The position numbers and the translations under genes are program-made. A stretch of 64,000 nucleotides of DNA from contig CM059431.1 of assembly GCA_030390025.1 (NCBI GenBank), positions 140,060,001-140,124,000 of the forward strand, given 5' to 3'. Positions 1 to 63,271 of this stretch are shown here, one piece after another; position 1 is the first letter of the stretch; each line of letters opens with the position of its first letter. The stretch is from Squalus acanthias (lineage: Eukaryota). The notes beneath the pieces were generated by a model, which was not told the DNA's origin, searched no databases, and saw only the letters and a program-made list of their open reading frames with translations.

Positions 1-3000
1 AGCTAGAAACAGTGGAGGTTCAAAGTTAGAAACTCGGAAGGTCCAAAGCTAGAAACAGTGAATATCCAAAGCTAAAAACAGTGAAGGTCCAAAGCTAGAT
101 AGAGTGAAGATCCGAAGCTGGAAAGAGAGGACATCCAAAGCTAGAAACAGTGGAGGTCCAAAGGTAGAAACAGTGAAGGTCCAAAGCTAGAAAGAGTGAA
201 GATCCAAAGCTAGAAACAGTGGAGATCCAAAGCTAGAAAGAGTGAATGTCCAATGCTAGAAAAAGTGGAGATCCAATGCTAGAAACAGTGCAGGTCCAAA
301 GCTAGAAACAGTGGAGATCCAAAGCAAAAAGATTGAATGTCCAAAGCTAGAAAGAGTGTAGATCCAAAACTAGAAACAGTGATGGTCCAAATCTAGCAAA
401 AGCGGAGGTCCAAAGCTAGAAAGACTGAAGGTCCAAAACTAGAAACAGTGGAGATCCAATCTAGAAACAGTGGAGATACAAAGCTAGAAACAGTAGTAGA
501 CATAAGCTAGAAACAGTGGAGCTCCAAAGCTAGAAACAGTGGAGGCCCAAAGCTAGAAACAGTGAAGGTCCAATGCTCGAAACAGTGGAGGTCCAAAGTT
601 AGAAACAGTGGAGATACAAAGCTGGAAACAGTGAAGGTCCAAAGCTAGAAACAGTGGAGCTCCAAAGCTAGAAACAGTGGAGATACAAAGCTGGAAACAG
701 TGAAGGTCCAAACCTAGAAAAAGTGGAGGTCCAAAGCTAGAAACTGTGAAGATCCAAAGCTAGAAACAGTGAAGAGCAAAAGCTAGAAACAGTGGAGGTC
801 CAAAGCTAGAAACAGTGGAGGTCCAAAGCTAGAAACAGTGAAGGTCCAAAGCTAGAAACAGTGAAGGTCAAAGCTAGAAACTGTGAAGGTCCAAAGCTAG
901 AAACAGTGAAGATCCAAAGCTAGAAACAGTGGAGATCCAAAGCTAGAAACAGTGAAGGTCCAAAGCTAGAAACTGTGAAGGTCCAAAGCTAGAAACTGTG
1001 AAGGTCCAAAGCTAGAAACAGTGAAGGTTCCAAAGCTAGAGACAGTGGAGGTCCAAACCTAGAAACAGTGGAGATCCAAAGCTAGAAACAGTGAAGGTCC
1101 AATGCTAGAAACAGTGGAGGTCCAAAGCTAGAAATGCTGAAGGTCCAAAGCTAGAAACAGTGGAGGTCCAAAGCTAGAAACAGTGAAGGTCCAATGCTAG
1201 AAACAGTGGAGGTCCAAAGCTAGAAACAGTGGAGATACAAAGTTGGAAACAGTGAAGGTCCAAAGCTAGAAACAGTGGAGCTCCAAAGCTAGAAACAGTG
1301 GAGATACAAAGCTGGATAAAGTGAAGGTCCAAAGCTAGAAACAGTGGAGATCCAAAGCTAGACACAGTGAAGGTCCAAAGCTAGAAACTGTGAAGGTGCA
1401 AAGCTAGAAAGAGTGAAGGTCCAAAGCTAGAAAGAGAGGAGATCCAAAGCTAGAAACAGTGGAGTTCCAAAGCTAGAAAGAGTGAAGGTCCGAAGCTAGA
1501 AACAGTGGAGATACAAAGCTGGAAACAGTGAAGGTCCAAACCTAGAAAAAGTGGAGGTCCAAAGCTAGAAACTGTGAAGATCCAAAGCTAGAAACAGTGA
1601 AGAGCAAAAGCTAGAAACAGTGGAGGTCCAAAGCTAGAAACAGTGGAGGTCCAAAGCTAGAAACAGTGAAGGTCCAAAGCTAGAAACAGTGAAGGTTCAA
1701 AGCTAGAAACTGTGAAGGTCCAAAGCTAGAAACAGTGAAGATCCAAAGCTAGAAACAGTGGAGATACAAAGCTGGAAACAGTGAAGGTCCAAAACTAGAA
1801 ACTGTGAAGGTCCAAAGCTAGAAACTGTGAAGGTCCAAAGCTAGAAACAATGAAGTTCCAAAGCTAGAGACAGTGGAGGTCCAAACCTAGAAACAGTGGA
1901 GATCCAAAGCTAGAAACAGTGAAGGTCCAATGCTAGAAACAGTGGAGGTCCAAAGCTAGAAATGCTGAAGGTCCAAAGCTAGAAACAGTGGAGGTCCAAA
2001 GCTAGAAACAGTGAAGGTCCAATGCTAGAAACAGTGGAGGTCCAAAGTTAGAAACAGTGGAGATACAAAGTTGGAAACAGTGAAGGTCCAAAGCTAGAAA
2101 CAGTGGAGCTCCAAAGCTAGAAACAGTGGAGATACAAAGCTGGATAAAGTGAAGGTCCAAAGCTAGAAACAGTGGAGATCCAAAGCTAGACACAGTGAAG
2201 GTCCAAAGCTAGAAACTGTGAAGGTGCAAAGCTAGAAACATTGGCGATTCAAAGCTAGAAACAGTGGAGATCCAAAGCTAGAAACAGTGGAGGTCCAAAG
2301 CTAGAAACAGTGAAGGTCCAATGCTAGAAACAGTGGAGGTCCAAAGTTAGAAACAGTGGAGATACAAAGCTGGAAACAGTGAAGGTCCAAAGCTAGAAAC
2401 AGTGGAGCTCCAAAGCTAGAAACAGTGGAGATGCAAAGCTGGATACAGTGAAGGTCCAAAGCTAGAAACAGTGGAGGTCCAAAGCTAGAAACAGTGTAGC
2501 TCCAAAGCTAGAAACAGTGGAGGTCCAAAGCTAGAAACAGTGGAGATACAAAGCTGGAAACAGTGAAGGTCCAAAGCTAGAAACAGTGGAGGTCCAAAGC
2601 TAGAAACAGTGAAGGTCCAAAGCTAGAAACAGTGAAGGTCCAAATCTAGAAACAGTGGAGATACAAAGCTGGAAACAGTGAAGGCCAAAGCTAGAAACAG
2701 TGGAGCTCCAAAGCTAGAAACAGTGGAGGTCCAAAACTAGAAACTGTGAAGGTCCAAAGCTAGAAACTGTGAAGGTCCAAAGCTAGAAACAATGAAGGTC
2801 CAAACCTAGAAAAAGTGGAGGTCCAAACCTAGAAACAGTGAAGGTCCAAAGCGAGAAACAGTGAAGGTCCAACACTAGAAACAGTGGTGGTCCAAAGCTA
2901 GAAATAGTGGCGGTCCAAAGCTAGAAACAGTGGAGGTCCAAAGCTAGAAACTGTGAAGATTCAAAGCTAGAAACAGTGGTGGTCCAACACTAGAAACAGT

Positions 3001-6000
3001 GGTGTACCAAAGCTAGAAATACTGGAGGTCCAAAGCTAGAAACAGTGAAGGTCCAAAGCTAGAAACAGTGAAGAGCAAAAGCTAGAAACAGTGGAGGATC
3101 AAAGCTAGAAACTGTGAAGGTCCAAAGGTAGAAACAGTGAAGATCCAAAGCTAGAAACAGTGGAGATACAAAGCTGGAAACAGTGAAGGTACAAAACTAG
3201 AAACTGTGAAGGTCCAAAGCTATAAACTGTGAAGATCTAAAGCTAGAAACAATGAAGGTCCAAAGCTAGAAACAGTGGATGTCCAAAGCTAGAAACAGTG
3301 AAGATCCAAAGTTAGAAACAGTGAAGATCCAAAGCTAGAAGGAGTGAAGGTCCAAAGCTAGAAAGAGAGGAGATCCAAAGCGAGAAAGATTGAATGTCCA
3401 AAGCTAGAAACAGTGAAGATCCAACACTAGAAACAGTGGTGGTCCAAAGCTAGAAATAGTGGAGGTCCAAAGCTAGAAACAGTGGAGGTCCAAAGCTAGA
3501 AACTGTGAAGATCCAAAGCTAGAAACAGTGGTGGTCCAAAACTAGAAACAGTGGTGGTCCAAAGCTAGAAATACTGGAGGTCCAAAGCTAGAAACGGTGG
3601 AGGTTCAAAGCTAGAAACAGTGAAGAGCAAAAGCTAGAAACAGTGGAGGTTCAAAGCAAGAAACTGTGAAGGTCCAAAGGTAGAAACAGTGAAGATCCAA
3701 AGCTAGAAACAGTGGAGATACAAAGATGGAAACAGTGAAGGTCCAAAACTAGAAACTGTGAAGGTCCAAAGCTAGAAACAATGAAGGTCCAAAGCTATAA
3801 AGAGTGGATGTCCAAACCTAGAAACAGTGAAGATCCAAAGTTAGAAACAGTGAAGGTCCAAAGCTAGAAAGAGTGAAGGTCCAAAGCTAGAAAGAGAGGA
3901 GATCCAAAGCTAGAAACAGTGGAGTTCCAAAGCTAGAAAGAGTGAAGGTCCGAAGCTAGAAAGAGTGAAGGTCCAAAGCTAGAAACAGTGGAGATCCATT
4001 GCGAGAGAGAGTTAACGTCCAATGCTAGAAAAAGTGGAGATCCAATGCTAGAAACAGTGGAGGTCCAAAGCTGGAAACAGTGGAGATCCAAAGCTAGAAA
4101 GATTGAATGTCCAAAGCTAGAAAGAGTGTAGGTCCAAAGCTAGAAAAAGTGGAGATCCAAAGCTAGAAACAGTGAAGGTCAAAAGCTAGAAAGGCTGAAG
4201 GTCCAAAGCTAGAAACAGTGAAGGTCCAAACTAGAAACTGTGTAGGTACAAAGCTAGAAACAGTGAAGGTCCAAAGCTAGAAACCGTGAAGGTCCGAAGC
4301 TAGAAACTGTGAAGGTCCAAATCTAGAAACATTGGAGATCCAAAGCTAGAAACAGTGGAGATCCAAAGCTAGAAACAGTGGTGGACCAAAGCTAGAAACA
4401 GTAGAGCTCCAAAGCTAGAAACAGTGGAGGTCCAAAGCTAGAAACAGTGAAGGTCCAATGCTAGAAACAGTGGAGGTCCAAAGTTAGAAACAGTGGAGAT
4501 ACAAAGCTGGAAACAGTGAAGGTCCAAAGCTAGAAACAGTGGAGGTCCAAAGCTAGAAACAGTGAAGGTCCAAAGCTAGAAACAGTGGAGATCAAAGCTA
4601 GAAACAGTGAAGGTCCAAAGCTAGAAACTGTGAAGTTCCAAAGCTAGAAACAGTGGAGATCCAAAGCTAGAAACAGTGAAGGTCCAAAGCTAGAAACTGT
4701 GAAGGTCCAAAGCTAGAAACTGTGAAGGTCCAAAGCTAGAAACAGTGGAGGTCCAAAGCTAGAAACAGTGGAGATCCAAAGCTAGAAACAGTGAAGGTCC
4801 AAAGCTAGAAACAGTGGAAGATCCAAAGCTAGAAACTGTGAAGGTCCAAAGCTAGAAACAGTGAAGGTCCAAAGCTAGAAACAGTGGAGATCCAAAGCTA
4901 GAAACAGTGAAGGTCCAAAGCTAGAAACTGTGAAGGTCCAAAGCTAGAAACAGTGAGATTCAAAGCTAGAAACAGTGGAGATCCAAAGCTAGAAACAGTG
5001 GAGGTCCAAAGCTAGAAACAGTGAAGGTCCAAAGCTAGAAACAGTGGAGGTCCAAAGTTAGAAACAGTGGAGATACAAAGCTGGAAACAGTGAAGGTCCA
5101 AAGCTAGAAACAGTGGAGCTCCAAAGCTAGAAACAGTGGAGATGCAAAGCTGGATACAGTGAAGGTCCAAAGCTAGAAACAGTGGAGGTCCAAAGCTAGA
5201 AACAGTGTAGCTCCAAAGCTAGAAACAGTGGAGGTCCAAAGCTAGAAACAGTGGAGATACAAAGCTGGAAACAGTGAAGGTCCAAAGCTAGAAACAGTGG
5301 AGGTCCAAAGCTAGAAACAGTGAAGGTCCAAAGCTAGAAACAGTGAAGGTCCAAATCTAGAAACAGTGGAGATACAAAGCTGGAAACAGTGAAGGCCAAA
5401 GCTAGAAACAGTGGAGCTCCAAAGCTAGAAACAGTGGAGGTCCAAAACTAGAAACTGTGAAGGTCCAAAGCTAGAAACTGTGAAGGTCCAAAGCTAGAAA
5501 CAATGAAGGTCCAAACCTAGAAAAAGTGGAGGTCCAAACCTAGAAACAGTGAAGGTCCAAAGCTAGAAACAGTGAAGGTCCAAAGCTAGAAACAGTGAAG
5601 GTCCAAAGCTAGAAACAGTGGAGGTCCAAAGCTAGAAACAGTGAAAGTCCAAAGCTAGAAACAGTGAAGGTCCAAAGCTAGAAACAGTGGAGGTCCAAAG
5701 CTAGAAACAGTGGAGGTCCAAAGCTAGAAACAGTGAAGGTCCAAAGCTAGAAACAGTGAAGGTCCAAAGCTAGAAACAGTGGAGATCCAAAGCTAGAAAC
5801 AGTGGAGGTCCAAAGCTAGAAACAGTGAAGGTCCAAAGCTAGAAACAGTGGAGGTCCAAAGCTAGAAACAGTGGAGATCCAAAGCTAGAAACAGTGAAGG
5901 TCCAAAGCTAGAAACAGTGAAGGTCCAAAGCTAGAAACAGTGAAGGTCCAAAGCTAGAAACAGTGAAGGTCCAAAGCTAGAAACAGTGGAGGTCCAAAGC

Positions 6001-9000
6001 TAGAAACAGTGAAGGTCCAAAGCTAGAAACAGTGAGGTCCAAAGCTAGAAACAGTGGAGGATACAAAGCTGGAAACAGTGAAGGTACAAAACTAGAAACT
6101 GTGAAGGTCCAAAGCTATAAACTGTGAAGATCTAAAGCTAGAAACAATGAAGGTCCAAAGCTAGAAACAATGGATGTCCAAACCTAGAAACAGTGAAGAT
6201 CCAAAGTTAGAAACAGTGAAGATCCAAAGCTAGAAGGAGTGAAGGTCCAAAGCTAGAAAGAGAGGAGATCCAAAGCGAGAAAGATTTAATGTCCAAAGCG
6301 AGAAACAGTGAAGATCCAACACTAGAAACAGTGGTGGTCCAAAGCTAGAAATAGTGGCGGTCCAAAGCTAGAAACAGTGGAGGTCCAAAGCTAGAAACAG
6401 TGAAGGTCCAAAGCTAGAAACAGTGAAGGTCCAAATCTAGAAACAGTGGAGATACAAAGCTGGAAACAGTGAAGGCCAAAGCTAGAAACAGTGGAGCTCC
6501 AAAGCTAGAAACAGTGGAGGTCCAAAACTAGAAACTGTGAAGGTCCAAAGCTAGAAACTGTGAAGGTCCAAAGCTAGAAACAGTGAAGGTCCAAAGCTAG
6601 AAACAGTGGAGGTCCAAAGCTAGAAACAGTGAAGGTCCAAAGCTAGAAACAGTGAAGGTCCAAACTAGAAACAGTGGAGATCCAAAGCTAGAAACAGTGG
6701 AGGTCCAAAGCTAGAAACAGTGGAGGTCCAAAGCTAGAAACTGTGAAGGTCCAAAGCTAGAAACAGTGGAGGTCCAAAGCTAGAAACAGTGGAGGTCCAA
6801 AGCTAGAAACTGTGAAGGTCCAAAGCTAGAAACAGTGGAGGTCCAAAGCTAGAAACAGTGAAGGTCCAAAGCTAGAAACAGTGAAGGTCCAAAGCTAGAA
6901 ACTGTGAAGGTCCAAAGCTAGAAACAGTGAAGGTCCAAAGCTAGAAACAGTGGAGGTCAAAGCTGAAACAGTGAAGGTCCAAAGCTAGAAACTGTGAAGG
7001 TCCAAAGCTAGAAACAGTGAAGGTCCAAAGCTAGAAACAGTGGAGGTCCAAAGCTAGAAACAGTGAAGATCCAAAGTTAGAAACAGTGAAGGTCCAAAGC
7101 TAGAAAGAGTGAAGGTCCAAAGCTAGAAAGAGAGGAGATCCAAAGCTAGAAACAGTGGAGTTCCAAGCTAGAAAGAGTGAAGGTCCGAAGCTAGAAAGAG
7201 TGAAGGTCCAAAGCTAGAAACAGTGGAGATCCATTGCGAGAGAGAGTTAACGTCCAATGCTAGAAAAAGTGGAGATCCAATGCTAGAAACAGTGGAGGTC
7301 CAAAGCTGGAAACAGTGGAGATCCAAAGCTAGAAAGATTGAATGTCCAAAGCTAGAAAGAGTGTAGGTCCAAAGCTAGAAAAAGTGGAGATCCAAAGCTA
7401 GAAACAGTGAAGGTCAAAAGCTAGAAAGGCTGAAGGTCCAAAGCTAGAAACAGTGAAGGTCCAAACTAGAAACTGTGTAGGTACAAAGCTAGAAACAGTG
7501 AAGGTCCAAAGCTAGAAACCGTGAAGGTCCGAAGCTAGAAACTGTGAAGGTCCAAATCTAGAAACATTGGAGATCCAAAGCTAGAAACAGTGGAGATCCA
7601 AAGCTAGAAACAGTGGTGGACCAAAGCTAGAAACAGTAGAGCTCCAAAGCTAGAAACAGTGGAGGTCCAAAGCTAGAAACAGTGAAGGTCCAATGCTAGA
7701 AACAGTGGTGGTCCAAAGTTAGAAACAGTGGAGATACAAAGCTGGAAACAGTGAAGGTCCAAAGCTAGAAACAGTGGAGGTCCAAAGCTAGAAACAGTGC
7801 AGCTCCAAAGCTAGAAACAGTGGAGAAACAAAGCTGGAAACAGTGAAGGTCCAAAGCTAGAAACTGTGAAGTTCCAAAGCTAGAAACAGTGGTGCTCCAA
7901 AGCTAGAAACAGTGAAGGTCCAAAGTTAGAAACGGTGTAGGTCCAAAGCTAGAAACTGTGAAGGTCCAAAGCTAGAAACAGTGGAGGTCCAAAGCTAGAA
8001 ACAGTGGAGTTCCAAAACTAGAAACAGTGAAGGTCCAAAGCTAGAAACAGGGAAGATCCAAAGCTAGAAACTGTGAAGGTCCAAAGCTTGAAACAGTGGA
8101 GGTCCAAAGCTAGAAAGAGTGGAGAACCAAAGCTAGAATCAGTGAAGGTCCAAAGCTAGAAACTGTGAAGGTACAAAGCTAGAAACATTGCAGATTCAAA
8201 GCTAGAAACAGTGGAGATCGAACGCTAGAAACAGTGGAGTTCCAAAGCTAGAAACAGTGAAGGTCCAATGCTAGAAACAGTGGAGGTCCAAAGTTAGAAA
8301 CAGTGGAGATACAAAGCTGGAAACAGTGAAGGTCCAAAGCCAGGAACAGTGGAGCTCCAAAGCTAGAAACAGTGGAGATACAAAGCTGGATACAGTGAAG
8401 GTCCAAAGCTAGAAACAGTGGAGGTCCAAACCTAGAAACAGTGTAGCTCCAAAGCTAGAAACAGTGGAGGTCCAAAGCTAGAAACAGTGGAGATACAAAG
8501 CTGCAAACAGTGAAGGTGCAAAGCTAGAAACAGTGGAGGTGCAAAGCTAGAAACAGTGAAGGTCCAAAGCTAGAAACAGTGAAGGTCCAAAGCTAGAAAC
8601 AGTGAAGGTCCAACGCTAGAAACAGTGGAGCTCCAAAGCTAGAAACAGTGGAGTTCCAAAACTAGAAACTTTGAAGGTCCAAAGCTAGAAACAGTGAAGG
8701 TCCAAAGCTAGAAACTGTGAAGGTCCAACGCTAGAAACAGTGGTGGTCCAAAGCTAGAAATAGTGGTGGTCCAAAGCTAGAAACAGTGGAGGTCCAAAGC
8801 TAGAAACTGTGAAGATCCAAAGCTAGAAACAGTGAAGGTCCAAAGCCAGAAACAGTGGAGGTCCAATTCTAGAGACATTGAAGGTCCAAAGCTAGAAACT
8901 GTGAAGGTCCAAAGCTAGAAACTGTGAAGGACCAAAGCTAGAAACAGTGGAGGTTCAAAGCTAGAAACTCTGAAGGTCTAAAGCTAGAAACAGTGAATAT

Positions 9001-10497
9001 CCAAAGCTAGAAACAGTGAAGGTCCAAAGCTAGATAGAGTGAAGATCCAAAGCTGGAAAGAGAAGACATCCAAAGCTAGAAACAGTGGAGGTCCAAAGGT
9101 TGAAACAGTGAAGGTACAAAGCTAGAAAGAGTGAAGGTCCAAAGCTAGAAACAGTGGAGATCCAAAGCAAGAAAGAGTGAATGTCCAATGCTAGAAAAAG
9201 TGGAGATCCAATGCTAGAAACAGTGCAGGTCCAAAGCTAGAAACAGTGGAGATCCAAGGTGAAAAGATTGAATGTCCAAAGCTAGAAAGAGTGTAGATCC
9301 AAAGCTAGAAACAGTGGAGATCCAGAGCTAGAAATAGTGGTGGTCCAAAGCTAGAAACAGTGGAGGTCCAAAGCTAGAAACTGTGAAGATCCAAAGCTAG
9401 AAACAGTGAAGGTCCAAAGCCAGAAACAGTGGAGGTCCAATTCTAGAGACATTGAAGGTCCAAAGCTAGAAACTGTGAAGGTCCAAAGCTAGAAACTGTG
9501 AAGGACCAAAGCTAGAAACAGTGGAGGTTCAAAGCTAGAAACTCTGAAGGTCTAAAGCTAGAAACAGTGAATATCCAAAGCTAGAAACAGTGAAGGTCCA
9601 AAGCTAGATAGAGTGAAGATCCAAAGCTGGAAAGAGAAGACATCCAAAGCTAGAAACAGTGGAGGTCCAAAGGTAGAAACAGTGAAGGTCCAAAGCTAGA
9701 AAGAGTGAAGGTCCAAAGCTAGAAACAGTGGAGATCCAAAGCTAGAAAGAGTGAATGTCCAATGCTAGAAAAAGTGGAGATCCAATGCTAGAAACAGTGC
9801 AGGTCCAAAGCTAGAAACAGTGGAGATCCAAGGTGAAAAGTTTGAATGTCCAAAGCTAGAAAGAGTGTAGATCCAAAGCTAGAAACAGTGGAGATCCAAA
9901 GCTAGAAACAGCGATGGTCCAAATCTAGCAAAAGTGGAGGTCCAAAGCTGGAAAGACTGAAGTTCCAAAGCTAGAAACAGTGGAGATCCAAAGCTAGAAA
10001 CAGTGGAGATCCAAAGCTAGAAACAGTAGTGGACATAAGCTAGAAACAGTGGAGCTACAAAGCTAGAAACAGTGGAGGTCCAAAGCTAGAAACAGTGAAG
10101 GTCCAAAGCTGGAAACAGTGAAGGTCCAAAGCTAGAAGCAGTGGAGCTCCAAAGCTAGAAACAGTGGAGATACAAAGCTGGAAACAGTGAAGGTCCAAAC
10201 CTAGAAAAAGTGGAGGTCCAAAGCTAGAAACTGTGAAGATCCAAAGCTAGAAACAGTGAAGAGCAAAAGCTAGAAACAGTGGAGGTCCAAAGCTAGAAAC
10301 AGTGGAGGTCCAAAGCTAGAAACTGTGAAGGTACAATGCTAGAAACAGTGGAGGTCCAAAGCTAGAAACAGTGAAGGTCCAAAGCTGGAAACAGTGGAGG
10401 TCCGAAGCTAGAAACAGTGGAGATCCAAAGCTAGAAACAGTGGAGATGCAAAGCTAGAAACAGTGGAGGTCCGAAGCTAGAAACAATGGAGTTCCAA
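1..10497. repeat. 23-bp tandem satellite, consensus CCAAAGCTAGAAACAGTG(G/A)AGGT, ~455 monomers; continues beyond the left edge
   Basis: Directly visible tandem unit. Minus-strand ORFs repeat every 23 aa (3 monomers = 69 bp). Variant blocks recur at 828 bp (ORFs 1174 and 2002) and 574 bp (8861 and 9435). Confidence 0.98.
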
Positions 10498-10877
10498 AGA
10501 GAATTCGGGGTCCATGTGCATCGATCGTAAAAATTTCATGGACAGATACAGACACGAATCAAAAAGACTAATGAAATGCTGGACGTTCTATCTAGAAGAC
10601 TAGAATACATGGGGTCGAAGTTATGCTACATCTATTCGAAGCCCTCGTTAGGCCACACCTGGAGTACTGTATTCCGTTCTGGGCACCACACCTTAGGAAG
10701 GTCATAACTACCATGAAGGGATTGTAAATGTTAATTTTAAATCAGAAGTTGACAGATTTATATTATATGGGGTAAAGGTGGGTATACGGAATTAGGTTCC
10801 AGATCGGCCATTATCTCATTGAATGGCGCAATAGGCTCGAGGGGCCAAATGGCCTACTCTTGCTCTTATGCTCCTAG
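10474..10877 (+). mobile_element. Decayed CR1-type LINE: RT C-terminal fragment plus internally deleted 3' end
   Basis: Translates as KLETMEFQREFGVHVHRS*KFHGQIQ...KKTNEML...RRLEY, then after a frameshift VEVMLHLFEALVRPHLEYCIPFWAPHLRK. A CR1-like 3' UTR follows (ATCTCATTGAATGGCG...GGCTCGAGGGGCCAAATGGCCTACTC). Confidence 0.9.
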
Positions 10878-11063
10878 TAGGAAGCCGATACCATTCTTAT
10901 AATCATGATTACTGTTTAGATGTAACAACTGAGTAAATATTGTTACATGGGTTGTCATTTGGGCATTGCGTTATCAAAGCAAATTTCGTTTCTCTCACAG
11001 GATCATAGAATCTTAGAAGAGTACAGCACAGAAGGAGGCCATTCGGCCCATCGGGTCTGTGTC

Positions 11064-11602
11064 TTATCTGAGGAAGGATGTTCTTGCCATGGAGGGTGTG
11101 CAGCGAAGATTCACCAGACTGATACCTGGGATGGCAGGAATGACGTACGAGGAGAGATTTGGGTCGATTGGGCTTATACTCGCTGGAGTTCAGAAGAATG
11201 AGAGGAGATCTCATTTAAACTTATAAAATTCTAACAGGGCTAGACAGACTGGATGCAGGAAGGATGTTCCCGATGGTGGGTGAGTCCAGAACAAGAGGTC
11301 ATAGTCTAAAGATAAGGGGTAAGCCATTTAGGACAGAGATGAGGAGGAATTTCTTCACCCCGAGAGTGGTGAACCTGTGGAATTCTCTACCACAGAAAGC
11401 AGTTGAGGTCAAGTCAGTAAATATATTCAAGAGGAGTTAGATATATTTCTTAAGGCTAAACGTATCAAGGGATATGGGGAGAAGGCAGGGACAGGGTGCT
11501 GAGTTTGGATGATCAGCCTTGATCTCATCGAATGGCGGAGCAGGCTCGAGTGGCAGAATGGCCTGCTCCTGCTCCTATCTTCTATGTTTCTATGTTTCTA
11601 TG
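11064..11602 (+). mobile_element. 5'-truncated CR1 LINE 3' end nested in the tail of the minus-strand CR1
   Basis: Encodes LRKDVLAMEGVQRRFTRLIPG... and ends in a (TTCTATGT)n tail. TGTGTC at 11058-11063 and 11601-11606 is a probable TSD. Closely similar to 55843-56797. Confidence 0.92.
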
Positions 11603-15072: not shown

Positions 15073-15345
15073 GACATAGGAACAGGAGTAGGCCATTCAA
15101 CCCCTCGAACCTGTTCCAACTTTCAATGAGATTATGGCTTATCTGCGACCTAACTCCACATACCCGCCTTTTACCCATATCCATTATACCGTTGGTTCAC
15201 AAAAAGTTATCAATCTCCAATTTAAAATTACCAATTGATCTAGCATCAACTGCCATTTGCGGAAGAGAGTTCCAAACTGTTACCACCCTTGGTGTGTAGA
15301 AGTGTTTGCTAATTTCACTCCTGAAAGGTCTGAACCTATTTTTTA
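15073..15345 (-). mobile_element. CR1-type LINE 3' end fragment
   Basis: Reverse of the CR1 tail (CATAGGAACAGGAGTAGGCCATTCAACCCCTCGAACCTG...GGAAGAGAGTTCCAAAC...ATTTCACTCCTGAAAGGTCTG). Confidence 0.8.
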
Positions 15346-16155: not shown

Positions 16156-16336
16156 TGTGACACTCCTGATGTGACATTCCAGATGTCACACTCTAGATGT
16201 CATACTCCTTAGGTCACGTTCCGAATGTTCCTCTCCAGATGTCACACACTAGATGTCACACTCTAGAAGTCACTCTCCAGACGTCACACTGCAGATGCCA
16301 CACTCCATATGTCACACTCCTGATGTCACACTCCAG
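16156..16336. repeat. 14-bp minisatellite, consensus GATGTCACACTCCA, ~12 copies
   Basis: Directly visible diverged tandem units. Confidence 0.9.
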
Positions 16337-16588
16337 AGGCCAAACATTTTTCAATGTTACTTTCGAAATTTCCCTTTCCCCATGCGGAGCCGGAGATCTT
16401 ACACATAGTCGGACCTCCAGCTGACCGGACATTGGCCACGGTTTCGCGTTTCATCCGACAAAAGCGGCTCCTCGGACAGTGCAGCACCCGAAGTGTCAGC
16501 CTGGATCGTGTGTTCAATGTCTGCCACTGACACTAGGATCGCATTGAGTTTAATGTTGAGAGTTCCACTTGGTATCAACAGGATGCAA

Positions 16589-16684: not shown

Positions 16685-18768
16685 CTGGAAAAGCCAGCAT
16701 TTATTGCCCGTCCCTAATTGCCCTCGAGAAGGTGTTGTTGAGCATCCATCTAGAACCGCTGCAGTTCCCGAGGTTACGGTATTCCAAAGTGTTCTTTGGT
16801 AGGAATTTCCAGGAATTTGATCCAGCGACGATGAAGGAAAGGTGATGTAATTCCACGTCCGGATTTCGTGTGACTTGGAAGTGCACTTGGAGGTGGTGAC
16901 GTTCCCTTGCGCGTGCTTCCCTTGTCCTTCTAGGGGGTACAGGTCGTGGGTTTGGGAGGTGCTATGGAAGAAGCCTTGGCAAGTTGTTGCAGTGTAGCTT
17001 TTGGGTGGTACACACTGCAGCCAATGTGCGCCGGAGGTGGAGGGAGTGAATGTTTAATGTGGTGGATGAGGTGCATATCACGCGAGCTGCTTTATCCTGG
17101 ATGGTGTCGAGCTACTTGAGTGTTTTTGGAGCTGCACTCATTCATGCAAATGGACAGTGTTCAATCACACTCCTGAATTATGTCGTGTAGGTGGTGGAAA
17201 GACTTTGGGGAGTCAGGAGATGAGTCATTCGCTACAGAATACCCAGCCTGCTCATGTAACCATAGTTTTTATGTGGCTGGTCCAGTTAACTTTGTTGACA
17301 CCCAATATGTTGATGTGGAGTGATTCGTCGATGGTAATGCCGTTGAATGTCAAGGTGAGGTGGTTAGACTTCCTCTTGTTGGAGATGGTCATTTCCTGAA
17401 ACTTGTGTGGCGCGAATGTTAGTTGTCAGGTAGCAGCCCAAGCCTGAATGTTGTCCAGGTCCTGATGCATGCGGGCACTGACTGCTTCCTTATCTGAGGA
17501 GTTGCGAATGGAAGTGATCACGGTGCAATCATCTGCAAACATCCCTACCTCTGACCTTATGATGGATGGAAGGTCAATGATGAAGCAGTTGAATATGATT
17601 AGGCCCAGGACAATGTCCTGAGGAACTCCTGCAGCGATGTCCTAGGGCTGAGATGAATGGACTCCAAGAACCACAAGATTCTAGCTTTGTGCTATGTATG
17701 TCTTAAACCAGTGGTGATATTTTTCCCCTGATACCCATTGACTTCCAATTTACTCGGGTTTCTTGATGCCACAATCAAAGGACAGTCATTCTCACATCAC
17801 CTTTGGAATTCTGCTCTTTTGTCCAAGTTTGGAACAAAGCTTCAATGAGGTCTGGAGCTGAGTGGTCCTGTCGGAATATAAACTTAGCCTCGATGAGTGG
17901 GTTATTGGCGAGTAATTGCCGCTTAATAGCGCTGTCGACGACCACTTCCATCACATGGTGTGACTGAGAGTGGACTGATGGGCGGTAATTGGCCGGATTG
18001 GATTTGTCCTGCTTTTTGTGGACAGATCAGACCTGGGCAGTTTTTCTCATTGTCGGTTAGATGCCAGGGTTGTATTTCTACTGGAATATCTTGCCTAGAG
18101 GCGCGGCAAGTCCTGGAGCACAAGGCTTCAGCACGATAGCTGGGATGTTATCGGGGCCGATAGCTTTTGCTATATCCAGTCCGATCAGCCGTTTCCTGAT
18201 ATCACGTGGAATGAATTGAATTGGCTGAAGACTGGCTTCTGTGATGGTGGGGACCTCACGAGCTGGCTGAGATGGATCATCCACTCGGCACTTCTGGCTG
18301 AAGATGAATGCTGGGCTCCACCATCATTAAGGATGGGGTTGGTATAGGAGCCTACTCCTCCAATTATTTGTTTAATTGTCCACCACCATTGGTGCAGGTG
18401 GGACATGATAAATTCAAGAATGGTGATGGAGGTGTCTGGGCCATTGGCTGGAATGTATGATTCTGCGAGTGTAGCTATGCTAGGCTGTTGATTGACTAGC
18501 CTGTGGGACAGCTCTGCCTATTTTGGCACATGTCACCTGGTGTGAAGAGGATTTTGCAGAGTCGACTGGGGCACGTATGTCTTTATCAATGCCGAGGCCG
18601 ATACTGTATTCTCCGTCTGGTTTTACTCTTATTAGAACTTTTCGTCGCAGTTTGACACAATAGAGTGACTTTCTAGGATATTTCAGAGGGAAGTTAAGAG
18701 TAAATCACTTTTCTGTGATTCTGGAGACACATATAGATCAGAGCAGGTAAGGACGGCAGGTTTCCAGT
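16685..18768 (-). mobile_element. Decayed CR1/L2-group LINE of a second family (RT region, 3' tail GGGCAATAAATGCTGGC, SINE-like 5' segment)
   Basis: ORF 18078-18284 (DIRKRLIGLDIAKAIGPDNIPAIVLKPCAPGLAAPLGKIFQ) and WWWTIKQ at 18185-18406 are typical pre-RT segments. Many stops and frameshifts. Confidence 0.85.
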
Positions 18769-43062: not shown

Positions 43063-44370
43063 TACCTGTTGGTAATTTGAGTGGTTGATTATATAAAGTC
43101 GAGTGATCAGGATCCTCCTATCTATGTGAAAGGTGATTTCTGCCCTGTTGTCAGTTTCGAACTAATACATACCTGACACTTGTTTCTCTCCAAAGGGAGC
43201 GGCCTCTATTGTTTCCACAGCCGGTTTGACAATAACCGCCTCATTAACGTTTCACCAAAAACAATAATCTCGGCTCCATTTCTCCTCCTAATTCGCATCC
43301 GTTTCTAACTGAGTAAACCGGATATCGTCGCGTTAGCAGTGATGAATTTATTCGAATTAATCGGGGACAAATTTTACCTCCGAAGTTGCTCCGATCCAGT
43401 GGCTGGATCGCGTTCAGTCCGACCTCACGGGTACAGAGGTTGATTTTGCAGGTGCTCCGCACAGAGCGATAATCGGCCAGTGCCAATGAGTTAATCCTTT
43501 ACTGAGCTGAACTGTGTGTTCGGTCTGAACTGTGGGCCCCGCCGTTGTCAGTTAAATTAAATAGTATTGGGCACCAAACGGTTCAGTGAGTGAACACACC
43601 GCCCGTTAATGTAAAAAAATAAAAGCATACGGAGTGAGAAAGGAGCAAATTCGCACCCGTCTGACTGAACTGTGAATTCTACAATAGGGAGGAGGCGCCG
43701 CTGGAGCAATCTGGGTAAATCCGCAGAGTACGTGTTCCTGCTTTCTGTCCCGCAACCGCTTTAAAATGTGTCTGTGGGGAGACTGGTGGAGACCAAGAGT
43801 GGGTTTAGCCCTGAAATCCCCGGAGTAAAATGGACTGTCCTCAGTCACAGTCTGAGCCCACACTCACAGAATAGCCGCAACACGTGCAATGGGGAACATC
43901 ACAGACGGCGGTAACTAGGCTTCAGAGAGGAAGAGTAAAGGGAGAAATGGAAGAATGAAACACAGAAATGAAGCTCAGACGCTACATTAACCTTACCTTG
44001 ATCCCGCAAGGATTTTCTGTCTCTTTATTTCCGTGTAGAATTTGCGAGTTTTATCCTTGTTATTTCACTACAACCAATCAGGTTAAGTTTCTTTGTTTGA
44101 TTTGAGCAAGTCACAAATTGTGAATGTGATCTGATCCTTATTCTGTGAGACTCAGAGCACCGCCCTCTGTGTGAAAACTGCTGCCCGCCCTCAGGGTGGA
44201 TTTCAACTCAAACTTTCCTCCTTTGCTTCAGAACAGGGAGCGGACTTTCTGGTCAAATCAAATCCAACCGGTTTGACTATTCGTTGCCACCTCACCTGTG
44301 AACAAAGTTAGTGATAAAATTTACTTCATCTCTTGTTCCAGGGAAGTTCAGTAAAACAGAGATTCGCTAA
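43063..44370. repeat. Copy A of a ~1.3-kb diverged tandem duplication
   Basis: Colinear with 44388-45664. Identical blocks include CCTCAGTCACAGTCTGAGCCCACACTCACAGAATAGCCGCAAC and GCACAGAGCGATAATCGGCCAGTGC. Confidence 0.93.
43997..44195 (-). promoter_or_regulatory. Putative promoter / first-exon region (GC boxes, CCAAT, TATA-like), copy A
   Basis: GGGCGG boxes at ~44160 and ~44185, CTGATTGG at ~44075, then GATAAAA and a donor AG|GTAAGG at 43996. Retained in copy B. Confidence 0.35.
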
Positions 44371-44387: not shown

Positions 44388-45664
44388 CACCTGTTAATAA
44401 TTGGAGTAATTACTTTTAATATAAAGATTATTAATTGGTTTCCTCCTGTCTGTGTGAAAGGTGGTTTCAGCCTGAAACCGATTTCCGTCTAAAACATTCC
44501 TGAAGTTTGTTTCTCTCTGAAGGGATCAGTCTGTCTGATTTTTCGGTCAGTTTGAGAATAACCGCCTCATTGACATGAATTTATTTCAGCATAAACACAA
44601 GTCCCTGCTCCATTCTCTCAGCTAATTCACAGGTTTTCCTGACTGAGTTAAACAATGATTTCTCGGTTATAAAGCACTTCATTATTACAATTAATCAGGT
44701 ACAAGTTTATTTTCTCCGCAGTTGCTCCGATCGAGTGACGGGGTCGCCTTCAGACCGGCCTCAGGTCAGCAGAGTCTGATTTTCCAGGTGCTCGGCACAG
44801 AGCGATAATCGGCCAGTGCGAAAGTGATAACCCTTTACTGAGCTGAAATGTGTGTTGGGTCTGAACTGCTGGTCCCGCCTTTGATCAGTTAAATAAAACT
44901 GTGCTGGACACCAAACGGTTCAGTGAGTAAAAGTCCGCACTGGGTTCCAAGGACCAGGTTCCCAGCCCTGTTTACTGAACTGCAAATTCTAACATGGGAA
45001 GGAGGCACCGCTGGACTTGGCTGGGTTAAATCCGCAGAGTTCGTGTTCCTACTTTCTGTCCTGCAACCCCTTTTAAATGTGTCTGTGGGGAGACTGGTGG
45101 AGACCAGGAGTGGGATTAACCCAGAAACCCTTGATGTAAAATGAACTGCCCTCAGTCACAGTCTGAGCCCACACTCACAGAATAGCCGCAACCCACGCTG
45201 GAGAAATTATCGGACCGCGGGTAATAGGCTTTAGAGAGGAAGGGTAAAGGGAGAAATCGAAGAATAAAACACAAAAATGAAGCTTAGAAGCTATATTAAT
45301 CTTACCCTGATCCCGCAAGGATTTTCTGTCTAATTCCGTGTAGATTTTGCAAGTTATATCCTAGTTATTTCATTACAACCAATCAGCTAGATGTTCCTTG
45401 TTGTATTTTAGCAAGTCACAAATTGTGAATTTGATTTGATCCTTGTTCTGTGAGATTCAGAGCCCCGCCCTCTGGGTGAAACCAGCTGCCCGCCCTCAGG
45501 GTGAATTTCAACTCAAACATTTCTCATTTGCTTCAGAACAGGGAGCGGCCAGTATAACCAGATCAAATCGAAGCCGTTTGACAATTCGCTGTCGCTTCAC
45601 CTGTGAACAAAGTTAATGATAAAATGTTATCCCTTCTTGTTCCTGGGAAGTTCAGTAAAACCGA
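44388..45664. repeat. Copy B of a ~1.3-kb diverged tandem duplication
   Basis: Colinear with 43063-44370. Both copies end in GGGAAGTTCAGTAAAAC. Confidence 0.93.
45306..45500 (-). promoter_or_regulatory. Putative promoter / first-exon region, copy B
   Basis: GGGCGGGG at ~45465, GGGCGGG at ~45490, CTGATTGG at ~45380, then GATATAA and a donor GG|GTAAGA at 45305. Confidence 0.35.
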
Positions 45665-46455: not shown

Positions 46456-49400
46456 TTCACATTGTATCACGATCCTGCCGGGTAGTTATGGGGTTTCACA
46501 GCGTATGAGGATGCTGCCAGGTTTGATTGGGGTTTAGCAGTGTATCAGGATCCTGCCAGGTGTGTATGGGGTTTCACAGTGTATTAGGATCCTACCAGGT
46601 GTGTATGGGGTTTCACACTGTATCCGGATCCTGCCGGGTATTTATGGGGCTACACAGTGTATCTGGATCCTGACAGGTTTGTATGGGGTTTCACAGTGTA
46701 TCAGGATCCTAGCAGGTGTGTATGGGGTTTCACAGTGTATCAGGGTCCTGCCAGGTGTGTATGGGGTTTCACAGTGTATCAGGATCCTGCCAGGTGTGTA
46801 TGGGGTTTCACAGTGTATCAGGGTCCTGCCAGGTGTGTATGGGGTTTCACAGTGTATCAGGATTCTGCCAGGTGTGTATGGGGTTTCACAGTGTATCAGG
46901 ATCCTGCCACGTGTGTATGCGGTTTCACAGTGTAGCAGGGTCCAGCCATGTGTGTATGGGGTTTCACAGTGTATCAGGATCCTGCCAGGTGTGTATGGGG
47001 TTTCACAGTGTATCACGATCCTGCCAGGTGTGTATGGGGTTTCACAGTGTATCAGGATCCTGCCAGGTGTGTGTGGGGTTTCACAGTGTATCAGGATCCT
47101 GGCAGGTATTTTTGGGGTTTCACAGTGTATGAGGATCCTGCCGGGTATTTATTTGGTTTCACAGTGTATGAGGATCCTGCCGGGTATTTATTTGGTTTCA
47201 CAGTGAATGAGGATGCTGCCAGGTTTGAATGGGGTTTAGCAGTGTATCAGGATCCTGCCAGGGGTGTGTGGGGTTTCACAGTGAATTAGGAGCCTACCAG
47301 GTGTGTATGGGGTTTCACAGTGTATCAGGATCCTGCCAGGTGTGTATGGGTTTTTTCAAACTGCATCAGGGTCTTGCCACGTGCGAAGGGGGTTTCACAG
47401 TGTATCAGGATCCTGCCAGGTGTGTATGTGTTTTCACAGTGCATCAGGATTCTGCCAGGTGTGTATGGAGTTTCACAGTTTATCTGGATCCTGCCAGGTG
47501 TGTGTGGGTTTTCACAGTGTATCAGGATCCTACCAGGTGTGTATGGGGTGTCACAGTGTATCAGGATCCTGCCAGGGGTGTATAGGGTTTCACAGTGTAT
47601 CAGGATCCTGCCAGGTGTGTATGGGGTTTCACAATGTATCAGGATTCTGCCAGGTGTGTATGTGTGTTTTCACAGTGTATCAGGATCCTGTCAGGTGTGT
47701 ATGGGTTTTCACTGTGTATCAGGATCCTGCCAGGTGTGTATGGGTTTTCACAGTGTATCAGGATCCTGTCAGGTGTGTATGGGTTTTCACAGTGTATCAG
47801 GATCCTGCCAGGGGTGTATGGGGTTTAACAGTGTATCAGGATCCTGCCAGGTGTGTGTGGGTTTTCACTGTGTATCAGGATCCTGTCAGGTGTGTATGGG
47901 TTGTCACTGTGTATCAGGATCCTGCCAGGTGTGTTTGGGATTTCACAGCGTATCAGGATCCTGCCAGGTGTGTATGGGGTTTCACAGTGTATTAGGAGCC
48001 TACCAAGTGTGTATGGGGTTTCACATTGTATCCGAATCCTGCCGCGTATTTATGGGGCTACACAGTGTATCTGGATCCTGACAGGTTTGTATGGGGTTTC
48101 ACAGTGTATCAGGATCCTAGCAGGTGTGTATGGGGTTTCACAGTGTATCAGGTTCCTGCCAGGTGTGTATGGGGTTTCACAGTGTATCAGGATCCTGCCA
48201 GGTGTGTATGGGGTTTCACAGTGTATCAGGATCCTGCCAGGTGTGTATGGGGTTTCACAGTGTATCAGGATCCTGCCAGGTGTGTATGGGGTTTCACAAT
48301 GTATCAGGATCCTGCCAGGTCTGTATGGGGTTTCACAGTGTATCAGGATCCTGCCAGGTGTGTATGGGGTTTCACAGTGTATCAGGATCCTGCCAGGTAT
48401 GTATGGGGTTTCACAGTGTATCAGGATCCTGCCACGTGTGTATGGGGTTTCACAGTGTATCAGGGTCCAGCCATGTGTGTATGGGGTTTCATAGTGTATC
48501 AGGATCCTGCCAGGTGTGTATGGGGTTTCACAGTGTATCAGGATCCTGCCAGGTGTGGATGGGGTTACACAGTGTATCACGATCCTGCCAGGTGTGTATG
48601 GGGTTTCACAGTGCATCAGTATCCTGCCAGGCGTGTGTGGGGTTTTACTGTGTATCAGCATCCTGCCAGGTATTTATGGGGTTTCACAGTGTATGAGGAT
48701 CCTGCCGGGTATTTATGGGGTTTCACAGTGTATGAGGATCCTGCCGGGTATTTATGTGGTTTCGCAGTGTATGAGGATGCTGCCAAGTTTGAATGGGGTT
48801 TAGCAGTGTATCAGGATCCTGCCAGGGGTGTGTGGGGTTTCACAGTGAATTAGGAGCCTACCAGGTGTGTATGGGGTTTCACAGTGTATCAGGATCCTGC
48901 CAGGTGTGTATGGGTTTTTTTCAAACTGCATCAGGGTCCTGCCACGTGCGAAGGGGGTTCCACAGTGTATCAGGATCCTGCCAGGTCTGTATGGGGTTTC
49001 ACTGTGTATCAGGATCCTGCCACGTGTGTATGCGGTTTCACAGTGTAGCAGGGTCCAGCCATGTGTGTATGGGGTTTCACAGTGTATCAGGATCCTGCCA
49101 GGTGTGTATGGGGTTTCACAGTGTATCACGATCCTGCCAGGTGTGTATGGGTTTCACAGTGTATCACGATCCTGCCAGGTGTGTATGGGCTTTCACAGTG
49201 TATCAGGATCCTGCAGGTATTTGTGGGGTTTCACAGTGTATGAGCATCCTGCAGGGTATTTATTGGGTTTCACAGTGTATGAGGACCCTGCCGGGTATTT
49301 ATTGGGTTTCACAGTGAATGAGGATCCTGCCAAGTTTGAATGGGGTTTAGCAGTGTATCAGGATCCTGCCAGGAGTGTGTGGGGTTTCACAGTGAATTAG

Positions 49401-56797: not shown

Positions 56798-58302
56798 CAG
56801 AGGCCCTGACCATCATTTTTCAATCCTCTCTGGCTTCAGGTGTGGTGCCGGAGGACTGGAGGATTGCTAAAGTAGAACCCTTGTTTAAAAAGGGAGAAAT
56901 GGATAGACCGAACAATTACAGACCAGTCAGCCTAAGCTCGGTGGTGGGAAAATTATTGGAAAGAATTCTGACGGACAGGATAAATCTTCATTTAGAAAGA
57001 CATGGATTAATCAAGGATAGTCAGCATGGATTTGTTAAGGGAAGTTCGTGTCTGACAAACTTGATTGCATTTTTTGAGGAGATAACAAGGAGGGTAGATG
57101 AGGGTAGTGCGTTTGATGTAGTGTATATGGACTTTAGCAAGGCTTTTGATAAGGTTCCACATGGCAGACTGGTCACGAATTTGAAAGCCCATGGGATTCA
57201 GGGCAAAGCGTCAAGTTGGATTCAATACTGTCTTGGAGACAGGAAGCAGAGGGTAATGGTTGATGGGTGTTTTTGTGACTGGAAGGCTGTCTCCAGTGGG
57301 GTTCCGCAGGGCTCAGTACTAGGTCCCTTGCTGTTTGTGCTATGTATCAACGATCTTGACTGGAATATAGGGGGTATGATTAAGAAGTTTGCAGAGTATA
57401 CTAAAATCGGCTGTGTGGTTGATACTGAAGAAGAAGCTGTAGACTGCAGGAAGATATCAATAAATTGGCCAGGTGGGAAGAACAGTGGCAAATGGAATTC
57501 AATCCGGAGAAGTGTGAGTTAATGCATCTGGGGAGGGTTAACAAGGAAAGGGTATACACATTAAATGGTAGGACACTGAGAAGAGTAGAGGAACAAAGTG
57601 ACCTTGGAGTGCATGTCCACGGATCCCTGAAGATAGCAGGCCAAGTAGATAAGTCATACAGAATGCTTGCCTTTATTAGCCGTTGCATATAATGCAAGAG
57701 CAGGGGGGTTATGCTTCAACAGTATAATTCACTAGTTTGGCCTCAGCTAGAGTTCTGCGTGCAGTTCTGGTCACCACATTACAGGAAAGATGTGATTGCA
57801 CTAGAGAGGGTACAGAGGAGATTTACAAGGATGTTTCCGGGGTGTAGATAATCTTAGCTATGAGGAAAGACTGAATAAGCTGGGTCTGTTTTCCTTGGAA
57901 CAGAGGAGGCTGAGGGGAGACCTCATTGAGGTGTATAAAATTATGAGGGATATAGATAAAGTGGATTGAAAGGAACTATTTCCCTTAGCAGCGGGGTCAA
58001 AAAGCCTGGGGGCACAGATTTAAAGTAATTGGGTGAATGTTTAGAGGGGATTTGATGGGAAATTTCTTCACTCGGAGGATTGTGCAGGTCTGGAACTCAC
58101 TGCCTGAAAGGGTGGAAGAGGCAGGAACCCTAACTACACTTAAAAATTACTTGCATGTGCACTTGGGAAGCTCCAACATGCAGAGCTACGGCCCAAGACT
58201 GGGAAGTGGGATTAGGCTGGATAGCACTTTGTTGGCCGGCGCGGATACGATGGGCCGAAATGGCCTCCTTCCATGCTGTAACTTTCTATGATTCTATTCT
58301 AT

Positions 58303-58572: not shown

Positions 58573-59006
58573 TGTCCGTGTGTTCATGGAGATGTGTCCT
58601 GGTTGGTGCTTCCAATTGAATATATTGACCATATCTCTCATGGTGTCAACAGCTGACTAATGAGCACTGTAGGGGGTGAGGACATTTACTGCTGTTCCAC
58701 TAATAGTAACACTAATGTAGAATGTACTGAATGATGTAACTTTAAACAGTAAGCTGAAGCAGAGCATTTATGTTTGGAATATCTTTGTGGTCTTACAAAC
58801 TCAGAAATAGCCATAAATATAAAATTGGTAGATTGCCTTCTGTTTCACGATCACAATTTGTGTGCGTGTCTTCTGTGTCTGTGTCCACGCACGACTGTCC
58901 AATCCAACGATCAGTCAGCATCATTTCCATTCCCCACTGGGGAAATATAAAATTGATTTTGTCTCGGAGCTGTAATTTCTCCAAACTTTAGTTGAATTGT
59001 TTCTCG
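58573..59006. other. Flank X' right part (paralogue of 42441-42876)
   Basis: Colinear from TCATGGAGATGTGTCCTG to ATTTCTCCAAACT.TAGTT. Confidence 0.9.
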
Positions 59007-59007
59007 G

Positions 59008-60469: not shown

Positions 60470-61110
60470 CGCTTTGCGGAACAACTCCATTCAGTACGTA
60501 AGGATGACCCCGAGCTTCCGGTCGCTTGTCATTTTAATTCACCCCTCCACGCTCACTCAGACCTCACCGTCCTCGCCCTCTTGCATTGTTCCACGGAAGC
60601 GCAGCGTAAGCTCCAGGAACAGCACCTCATCTTCCGTTTAGGCACTTTACAGCCTTCCGGACTCAATATCGAGTTCAACAATTTCAGATCATAACCCCGG
60701 CCCCTACCACATATGTATACATTTTATCCACTCTTTTGGTCCGTGCCATTTTCCTTTTTTTTCTCTCTCTCTCCCCCCACGGCAGCTGTCTCTGATTCTG
60801 CCAGCATTTCACACCTTACCTTTTGTTTCTCAACCTGTTCCATTACCATCTCGTCTTGCCTTGAGCATCTCTCAATGTCTCTACTTACTAAAGACCAACC
60901 CTTTTGTTCTTTTATTCCTCCCCCCAGTCTCCCCCTTGCATTTTTATCTGTTTATTTCCTGCTCTTTCAGTTCCGACGAAGGGTTTCGACCTGAAACGTT
61001 AACTCTCTTTCTCTCTCCACGGATGTTACCTGGCCTGCTGAGTTTTCCAGCGTTTTCTGTTGTTATTTCGGATTTCCAGCATCCGCAGTATTTTGCTATC
61101 GTATTACCGC
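60470..61110 (+). mobile_element. Penelope-like retroelement fragment: GIY-YIG endonuclease C-terminus (60470-60694) plus pLTR with hammerhead motif
   Basis: Hand translation RFAEQLHSVRKDDPELPVACHFNSPLHAHSDLTVLALLHCSTEAQRKLQEQHLIFRLGTLQPSGLNIEFNNFRS* shows the R..EH, VA.HF, R...E and L.TL.P.GLN motifs of PLE endonucleases. Confidence 0.92.
60968..61005 (+). ncRNA. Degenerate minimal hammerhead ribozyme motif of the Penelope pLTR
   Basis: CAGTT-CCGACGA-AGGGTTTCGACCT-GAAA-CGTTAACTC. The CUGANGA core carries a U>C change; stem III is the palindrome AACGTT. Confidence 0.65.
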
Positions 61111-61438: not shown

Positions 61439-61448
61439 AACTCTCAAA

Positions 61449-63256: not shown

Positions 63257-63271
63257 CAGAGGAGGGTCTGT

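What the first reader, a model, noticed from the sequence alone, without database searches (positions are those of the whole stretch)
10400..10720. The >10-kb 23-bp satellite appears to have been born from a CR1 reverse-transcriptase segment, with the parent sequence still attached
Seen in the sequence: the last monomer runs without any junction, in frame, into CR1 ORF2 (AAG CTA GAA ACA ATG GAG TTC CAA AGA GAA TTC GGG GTC CAT GTG CAT = KLETMEFQREFGVHVH). The consensus monomer encodes KLETVEVQ. This sits at the same position as LRRVEEQ before SDLGVHVH in the CR1 at ~57577-57620. The monomer is bounded by AAAG at both ends. Inference: slippage between two AAAG microhomologies inside a LINE seeded a 23-bp duplication that expanded to hundreds of copies, so this locus may be the birthplace of the satellite.
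Basis: partly seen in the sequence, partly recalled or inferred. Interest (0 to 1): 0.7.

Follow-up and report, generated by a model that had tools for sequence, protein, structure and literature searches.

The report
Satellite grown from CR1 retrotransposon piece
A long block of 23-base repeats in a shark-like genome is a copy of eight codons from an old, broken jumping gene that still sits at its end; repeats arising this way are already known, though here traces of earlier stages may survive.

Summary
Confirmed. A 23-bp array (window 1-10,499, 457 monomers, open to the left) runs in register into a decayed CR1 LINE ORF2. That copy continues through a stop, a frameshift and a deletion of about 330 bp to a 3' end near 10,877. 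The commonest monomer reads KLETVEVQ. Against profiles of other CR1s this phase ranks 1 of 46, and 1-30 of 100,000 shuffles reach its score. In public contigs, two CR1-family records begin to fit exactly one monomer before the junction. One record begins exactly two monomers before it. Another organism has tandem monomers at about 1/200 to 1/500 of the relative depth. So the monomer is CR1-derived (about 0.93). Not shown: that this very locus is the birthplace, since the array's left end and a genome are unavailable and paralogues with the same deletion exist. The AAAG microhomology is also not shown: it is trivial inside an array, and end points suggest AAG or less. LINE-ORF2-derived satellites and microhomology-seeded duplication are known, so this is a new, well-preserved member of a known kind. 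The possible 1x, 2x, short-array, large-array series is the part worth following.

The parts
1..10499 (+). 23-bp tandem array, 457 monomers, open to the left; 136 variants among the 437 monomers of 23 bp; mean 2.0 differences from the commonest variant, 13.6% pairwise
10474..10499 (+). last monomer, which is also CR1 ORF2 codons K-L-E-T-M-E-F-Q plus two bases of the R codon; 21 of 23 identical to the commonest monomer; the shared hinge between array and LINE
   Evidence: contigs X1-1 and X6-25 begin to fit at 10,477
10451..10473 (+). penultimate monomer; contig X2-9 begins to fit at its first base, after 128 unaligned letters (possible dimer-stage paralogue)
   Evidence: table 8; four other CR1 copies match 10,451-10,476 at only 5-8 of 26
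10500..10720 (+). decayed CR1 ORF2 behind the core RT domain (GVHVH ... ALVRPHLEYC ... FWAPHLRK); in-frame stop at 10,528-10,530, 1-bp loss near 10,612
   Evidence: homologues carry RVT_1
10721..10764 (+). junction of an internal deletion of about 330 bp in the CR1 copy; the same deletion is spanned by diverged contigs in runs X2 and X20
   Evidence: table 8, records 13, 14, 21
10765..10877 (+). 3' end, 3' UTR and short tail of the same CR1 copy
   Evidence: blastn 78-84% to other CR1 3' ends at 15,075-15,180, 11,511-11,578 and 56,692-56,769; loose tails behind 10,865-10,869
3840..7786 (+). near-identical 31-monomer blocks at 3,840-4,551 and 7,076-7,786 (141 monomers apart), one of several recent multi-monomer duplications inside the array
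57576..57620 (+). homologous single-copy place in another CR1 family (TLRRVEEQSDLGVHVH), 16 of 23 identical to the commonest monomer in register (best other rotation 10); a comparison, not the parent

Best explanation
A 23-bp piece of ORF2 in one CR1 LINE copy, just behind the core RT domain, was duplicated in tandem. This knocked the frame out, since 23 is not a multiple of 3. The dimer then grew by slippage and unequal exchange, later in blocks of 25-141 monomers, into an array of over 10 kb, with the rest of the LINE still attached on the right. The founding copy also lost about 330 bp and was itself duplicated with its flank. The window therefore shows the founding element or a duplicate of it. 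The event predates the split of organisms A and F, and the large expansion happened in A's lineage. Shown: register and homology of monomer and CR1, the junction, the internal block duplications. Inferred: the dimer stage, the paralogy, the age, the lineage-specific expansion, and slippage at a 2-4 base microhomology. No function is implied; neutral turnover suffices.
For: Profile test: the in-register reading KLETVEVQ ranks 1 of 46 phases and strands under all four profiles. Shuffles reaching its score: 4, 30, 1 and 0 of 100,000; the third profile's subset was chosen by a rough motif filter and the last is biased. The profile from the 4 window CR1 copies alone, which is independent of any search, gives 30 of 100,000. 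The commonest variant fits better than the second (11.7 against 8.4 bits). Four of the 47 hits with a locatable motif and 9 residues before it have KLETV at exactly -9 to -5 (that query held the monomer peptide). X1 record 1 (10,477-10,566, 17 differences) and X6 record 25 (10,477-10,547, 13 differences, 58 letters unaligned on each side) fit through the last monomer and stop. X2 record 9 fits from 10,451. Tandem 'goes back' joints occur in all 4 runs. Monomer depth relative to CR1 3'-end depth is 0.63, 0.27, 0.092 and 0.0013 in X1, X2, X6 and X20. Block duplications in the array.
Against: The letters of the cognate family upstream of 10,477 were never seen. None of three protein searches, the representative search or five collection scans returned the cognate family. 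Contig evidence rests on end points, and on my reading that minus-strand records are numbered in their own direction; only 32 of 19,120 pieces were listed. The link between X2 records 9 and 10 is a 29-letter overlap, not the 30 expected of graph neighbours. Three of the four other CR1 copies match the monomer's DNA only weakly (12-13 of 23; best other rotation 9-12). The tool states that depth is not copy number. The left end of the array is unseen.
Confidence: 0.72

Rival explanations
1. The monomer comes from this CR1 family but was born in another copy. An existing array became joined to this CR1 copy later, by ectopic recombination or gene conversion across the shared 23 bp, so this junction is a landing site and not the birthplace.
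For: Summed depth over the monomers in organism A is about 1,000-2,000 times that just inside the CR1 (table 2), so most monomers lie elsewhere or further left. Several related loci exist (records 13, 14, 21). The terminal monomer's two changes also occur together at 1,840 in the array.
Against: The possible dimer contig (X2-9, depth 24.4, 16% different) has the depth and divergence of contigs that carry this locus's own deletion and flank (records 13 and 16, depth 23.4 and 23.3). That ties the early stage to this element's lineage. 23 bp is short for ectopic recombination (general knowledge).
Confidence: 0.2
2. An unrelated, pre-existing satellite was hit at its edge by a 5'-truncated CR1 insertion, and the in-frame look is chance microhomology at the 5' junction.
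For: The window is full of satellites and CR1 pieces. 5'-truncated LINE insertions often join at a microhomology (general knowledge).
Against: The fit covers all eight codons, with 1-30 of 100,000 shuffles reaching it. Family contigs fit through the whole last monomer. No monomer follows the CR1 tail: none of the 200 listed matches of 378 and no 23-bp array lies beyond 10,499, and one search found no notable hit in the non-satellite parts.
Confidence: 0.05
3. The junction is an assembly artefact joining an array to a CR1 at their shared 23-mer.
For: None of the 32 listed contigs that is near-identical to the window spans 10,499.
Against: X2 record 9 holds two monomer-like units followed by CR1. 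Short-read contigs break in arrays, and a hole proves nothing (tool text). It would still require the monomer to be CR1-derived.
Confidence: 0.03

Closest known systems
Chicken HinfI (SCR1) repeat and Cen2/3/4/7/11 satellites derived from CR1 (as listed in passages and tables of PMC9659126 and PMC6947457; primary papers not read)
   Same: Satellite DNA made from CR1 sequence, including part of ORF2.
   Different: HinfI holds a 3' UTR plus partial ORF2 inside its unit. Here the whole unit is 23 bp of ORF2 and the parent is joined in register at the array end.
PROsat of Phodopus roborovskii and Pvc 20 of harbour seal, from LINE-1 ORF2 (passage and table of PMC9659126)
   Same: Tandem repeats traced to LINE ORF2.
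   Different: L1, not CR1. For PROsat only a small region matches ORF2. The passages I saw describe no parent attached in frame.
Minisatellite origin by short flanking repeats (Haber and Louis 1998; Alu-derived minisatellites, Jurka and Gentles 2006; both seen only as cited in PMC6947457) and microhomology-mediated tandem duplication (passages of PMC13167724)
   Same: A single-copy motif goes 1x to 2x by slippage or unequal exchange at flanking microhomology, then expands.
   Different: The cited model uses 5-10 bp flanking repeats; here at most 3-4 bp can be argued, and that is not shown. The product is a satellite-sized array, not a short minisatellite.
Earlier notes of this scan in the same genome: e1-7790172 (49-bp satellite from the CR1 ORF2 end) and e1-7857509 (28-bp array from an L2 RT motif)
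   Same: Array grown from a short LINE ORF2 piece with the parent attached.
   Different: Other families and units. These are unchecked AI notes, not evidence.

Membership tests
CR1-clade LINE (parent element) | ORF2 homologous to CR1 reverse transcriptase proteins | tested here: met
   Aligns to four CR1 copies in the window. A profile holding the fragment and three of those copies finds 4,531 proteins among 6,372 candidates, most of the listed ones with RVT_1, including ray and shark proteins. The two pieces alone hit no Pfam family.
CR1-clade LINE (parent element) | CR1-type 3' UTR with hairpin-like motif and short repeat tail | tested here: met
   10,765-10,877 matches other 3' ends; tails seen as loose ends. 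The hairpin was not folded. That this end is typical of CR1 is recalled.
CR1-clade LINE (parent element) | 5' part (endonuclease, core RT) and target-site duplication | not testable with these tools
   Would lie left of the array, outside the window; no genome held.
TE-derived satellite DNA | long head-to-tail array of homogenised monomers | tested here: met
   457 monomers, 13.6% mean pairwise difference, block duplications.
TE-derived satellite DNA | monomer homologous to a single-copy stretch of the TE | tested here: met
   Profile test; contigs that begin to fit at the last monomer. Cognate consensus letters not seen.
Microhomology-mediated tandem duplication | the same short sequence on both sides of the unit in the unduplicated ancestor | tested here: inconclusive
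   X2-9 begins at AAG (3 bases); X1-1 and X6-25 begin at 10,477 (none). End points only.
Birthplace locus | the same LINE copy continues on both sides of the array | not testable with these tools
   The array is open at window position 1; no genome.
Centromeric satellite | CENP-A binding or centromeric position | not testable with these tools
   No chromatin or position data.

The most novel reading that the evidence does not exclude
All stages of a satellite's birth survive side by side for one CR1 element. One copy sits in the CR1 family, a frozen dimer in one duplicate of the founding locus, short arrays in a distant relative (orthologous or paralogous DNA 84% alike), and a family expanded some hundred-fold in this lineage. 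With two similar notes from this genome, that would make LINE ORF2 a recurring nursery of shark satellites. It would also offer a natural experiment on why one duplicate expands while its sister stays at two copies.
Probability: 0.4. Interest if true: 0.55.

Novelty: new member of a known kind. Interest (0 to 1): 0.36.

Why it matters
Most claims that a satellite came from a transposon rest on partial similarity. Here unit, phase and parent are joined to the base, so the ancestral monomer is known (the E-coding variant) and later changes in the array can be polarised. If the dimer paralogue and the short arrays in organism F are real, the open question of what turns a 2x duplication into a satellite could be tested on sister loci. 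Without that it is one more transposon-derived satellite with no sign of function.

Tried and rejected
Own genome: not held. Search with the 46-residue piece among longer proteins: no candidate. Representative search: 1 hit, a mucin-like protein whose score is the sum of 12 stretches of about 2 bits, rejected as spurious. Profile searches found CR1s of birds, rays, sharks and unnamed sources, but not the cognate family. Exact-pattern scans: monomer 0 hits in metagenome, viral and prokaryote collections; CR1 26-mer 0 hits in metagenome and viral collections. These collections hold little vertebrate DNA, so the blanks say nothing. Alignments A3-A5 were misaligned and not used. The long-gap local alignments are noisy; only blocks that agree were used. 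No RNA holder was listed, which is no evidence on expression. Origin of the window's 39-, 27-, 21- and 14-bp repeats from unique parts of the window: no match over 11 bp, with one short query each. Look-ups of earlier findings by sequence, by nearby place and by words returned nothing. No paper describing this satellite turned up in five searches, which were by words, not by sequence; supplements were not read, and satellite tables such as those of PMC11406177 could list it. Rejected: the AAAG argument as stated (trivial in an array), and my own note that records 9 and 10 are exact neighbours (29-letter overlap).

Full report
The observation. The window opens inside a 23-bp tandem array that ends at 10,499. 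Tiling gives 457 monomers, 437 of exactly 23 bp, in 136 variants. The commonest variant occurs 60 times and the next 46 times; they differ at one site that is 47% G and 50% A. From 10,474 the last monomer reads KLETMEFQ and goes on without a gap as REFGVHVHRS, a stop, and KFHGQIQTRIKKTNEMLDVLSRRLEYM. After a 1-bp loss near 10,612 it continues as VEVMLHLFEALVRPHLEYCIPFWAPHLRK. This aligns with four other CR1 copies in the window. ORF2 homology runs to about 10,720, about 330 bases are then missing, and the 3' end and tail follow at 10,765-10,877. In two homologues the matching place lies 62-69 residues after the FADD motif, just past the end of the Pfam RVT_1 match. Among the named hits listed, ray and shark proteins are closest in identity to the window's CR1 (48-51%, against mostly 34-42% for birds), so I call the genome shark-like.

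Is the fit more than chance? I built profiles of the eight residues before the xDLG motif and scored all 46 phases and strands of the monomer, plus 100,000 nucleotide shuffles. The profiles came from 43 distinct segments plus 4 window copies, from the 4 window copies alone, from a non-bird subset (23, chosen by a rough motif filter), and from 23 segments. The phase that abuts the junction ranked first each time. Shuffles reaching the score of KLETVEVQ numbered 4, 30, 1 and 0. The last set is biased because its query held the peptide, and the query held the last monomer's peptide; the 4-copy profile is free of both. The commonest variant fits better than the second (11.7 against 8.4 bits), which makes it the likely ancestral state. 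At DNA level it matches the CR1 at 57.6 kb at 16 of 23 in register (best other rotation 10), but the other three copies only at 12-13 of 23. Four of the 47 hits with a locatable motif have KLETV at exactly this offset.

The cognate family. It was not found as protein (the one hit is spurious) or in the collection scans. Public runs do hold the stretch (20 of 22 listed rows hold part of it, none half). I laid 4 of them on 10,430-10,900; 32 of 19,120 pieces were listed. Two contigs 18-19% different from the window (X1 record 1, X6 record 25) begin to fit at 10,477. They thus cover the whole last monomer and not the one before, as a family with a single monomer predicts. For X6-25, 58 letters are unaligned on either side. 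For X1-1 the 29 spare letters lie on the left only if minus-strand records are numbered in their own direction, which other records suggest but I could not verify. X2 record 9 (298 letters, 27 differences) begins to fit at 10,451, the first base of AAG of the penultimate monomer, after 128 unaligned letters. Other CR1 copies match 10,451-10,476 at only 5-8 of 26, so this looks like a second monomer and possibly a dimer. It could also be a longer array with diverged units. Its depth (24.4) equals that of records 10, 13 and 16 (23.3-23.5); record 13 spans the same deletion and 16 reaches the flank. Records 13 and 16 overlap by 30 letters, but 9 and 10 by 29, so one locus is suggested and not shown.

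Distribution. Contigs spanning the deletion at 84-86% identity occur in X2 (records 13, 14) and in X20 of organism F (record 21, which runs on into the flank). All four runs show joints that go back over the monomers, so tandem copies exist in organisms A, B and F. Monomer depth over CR1 3'-end depth is 0.63 and 0.27 in A, 0.092 in B (low depth) and 0.0013 in F. The tool warns that depth is not copy number, so I take only the order of magnitude: some hundred-fold more in A than in F. The best holders may include the sample behind the window and are not independent support. Inside the array, blocks of 18-31 near-identical monomers recur 25, 36, 118 and 141 units apart, so turnover now works in large steps.

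How it most likely arose. A 23-bp piece of ORF2 in one CR1 copy was duplicated, and the dimer grew by slippage and unequal exchange. The founding element, with its deletion and flank, was also duplicated, and the large expansion came later in one lineage. That the monomer is CR1-derived I put at about 0.93. That the array at this junction descends in place from the founding element or a duplicate of it I put at about 0.72. The main rival (0.2) is that an array born in another copy was joined here through the shared 23 bp. The AAAG mechanism is not shown: in an array every unit is bounded by the same letters. The end points give AAG for the dimer-like contig and nothing for two family contigs, which may belong to a sister subfamily. 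The left end of the array, which would settle both points, is outside the window, and no genome is held.

Comparison with what is known. Two reviews, read as passages and tables (PMC6947457; PMC9659126), list satellites from CR1 in chicken and from LINE-1 ORF2 in a hamster and a seal. The first also gives the Haber and Louis model of minisatellite birth between 5-10 bp repeats. Passages of PMC13167724 treat the 1x to 2x step as common and further expansion as rare and unexplained. Passages of an owl preprint (10.1101/2024.07.05.602039) show how often such origins remain ambiguous. Passages of PMC11406177 mention shark satellites without this unit; its supplements were not read. Five word searches gave no paper on this repeat. 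Two unchecked notes of this scan describe similar LINE-born arrays in the same genome.

Verdict. A real and unusually clean case of a known kind. Interest 0.36. The boldest reading still open is a preserved series from one copy to dimer to short array to large family (probability 0.4, interest 0.55).

Noticed in passing
window:10721-10900; records 12, 13, 14, 16, 21, 26: The internally deleted CR1 and its 3' flank occur in several versions 84-99% alike, in organisms A, B and F, which suggests an old segmental duplication. A contig of organism B is 170 of 171 identical to the window.
   Followed up: partly
window:43100-45700: A stretch of about 1.3-1.4 kb of non-satellite sequence appears twice in tandem with clear divergence (for example 43,360-44,330 and 44,700-45,650), between two 39-bp arrays; seen by eye.
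   Followed up: no
window:42430-42880 and 58580-59010: Similar non-repeat-looking sequences lie next to the ends of two different satellite arrays (seen by eye), suggesting a duplicated block.
   Followed up: no
window:25015-42143 and 46456-51743: Two arrays of a 39-bp unit; the first shows blocks recurring about 3.0 and 3.9 kb apart in the Tandem Repeats Finder rows. No parent found in the window.
   Followed up: partly
window:18777-25001 and 59009-63795: 21/27-bp C-rich repeats; a block at 61,449-63,255 is inverted relative to its neighbours.
   Followed up: no
window:11600-14750 (minus strand): A long decayed CR1 that seems to keep ORF1-like and endonuclease-side sequence, with a 14-bp repeat at 16,156-16,337 further upstream and another LINE at about 16,700-18,500.
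   Followed up: no
P0106: A CR1-type reverse transcriptase, 65% identical to the window's CR1 stretch, is filed under a Klebsiella name on a 1.6-kb contig; probably vertebrate contamination of a bacterial record.
   Followed up: no
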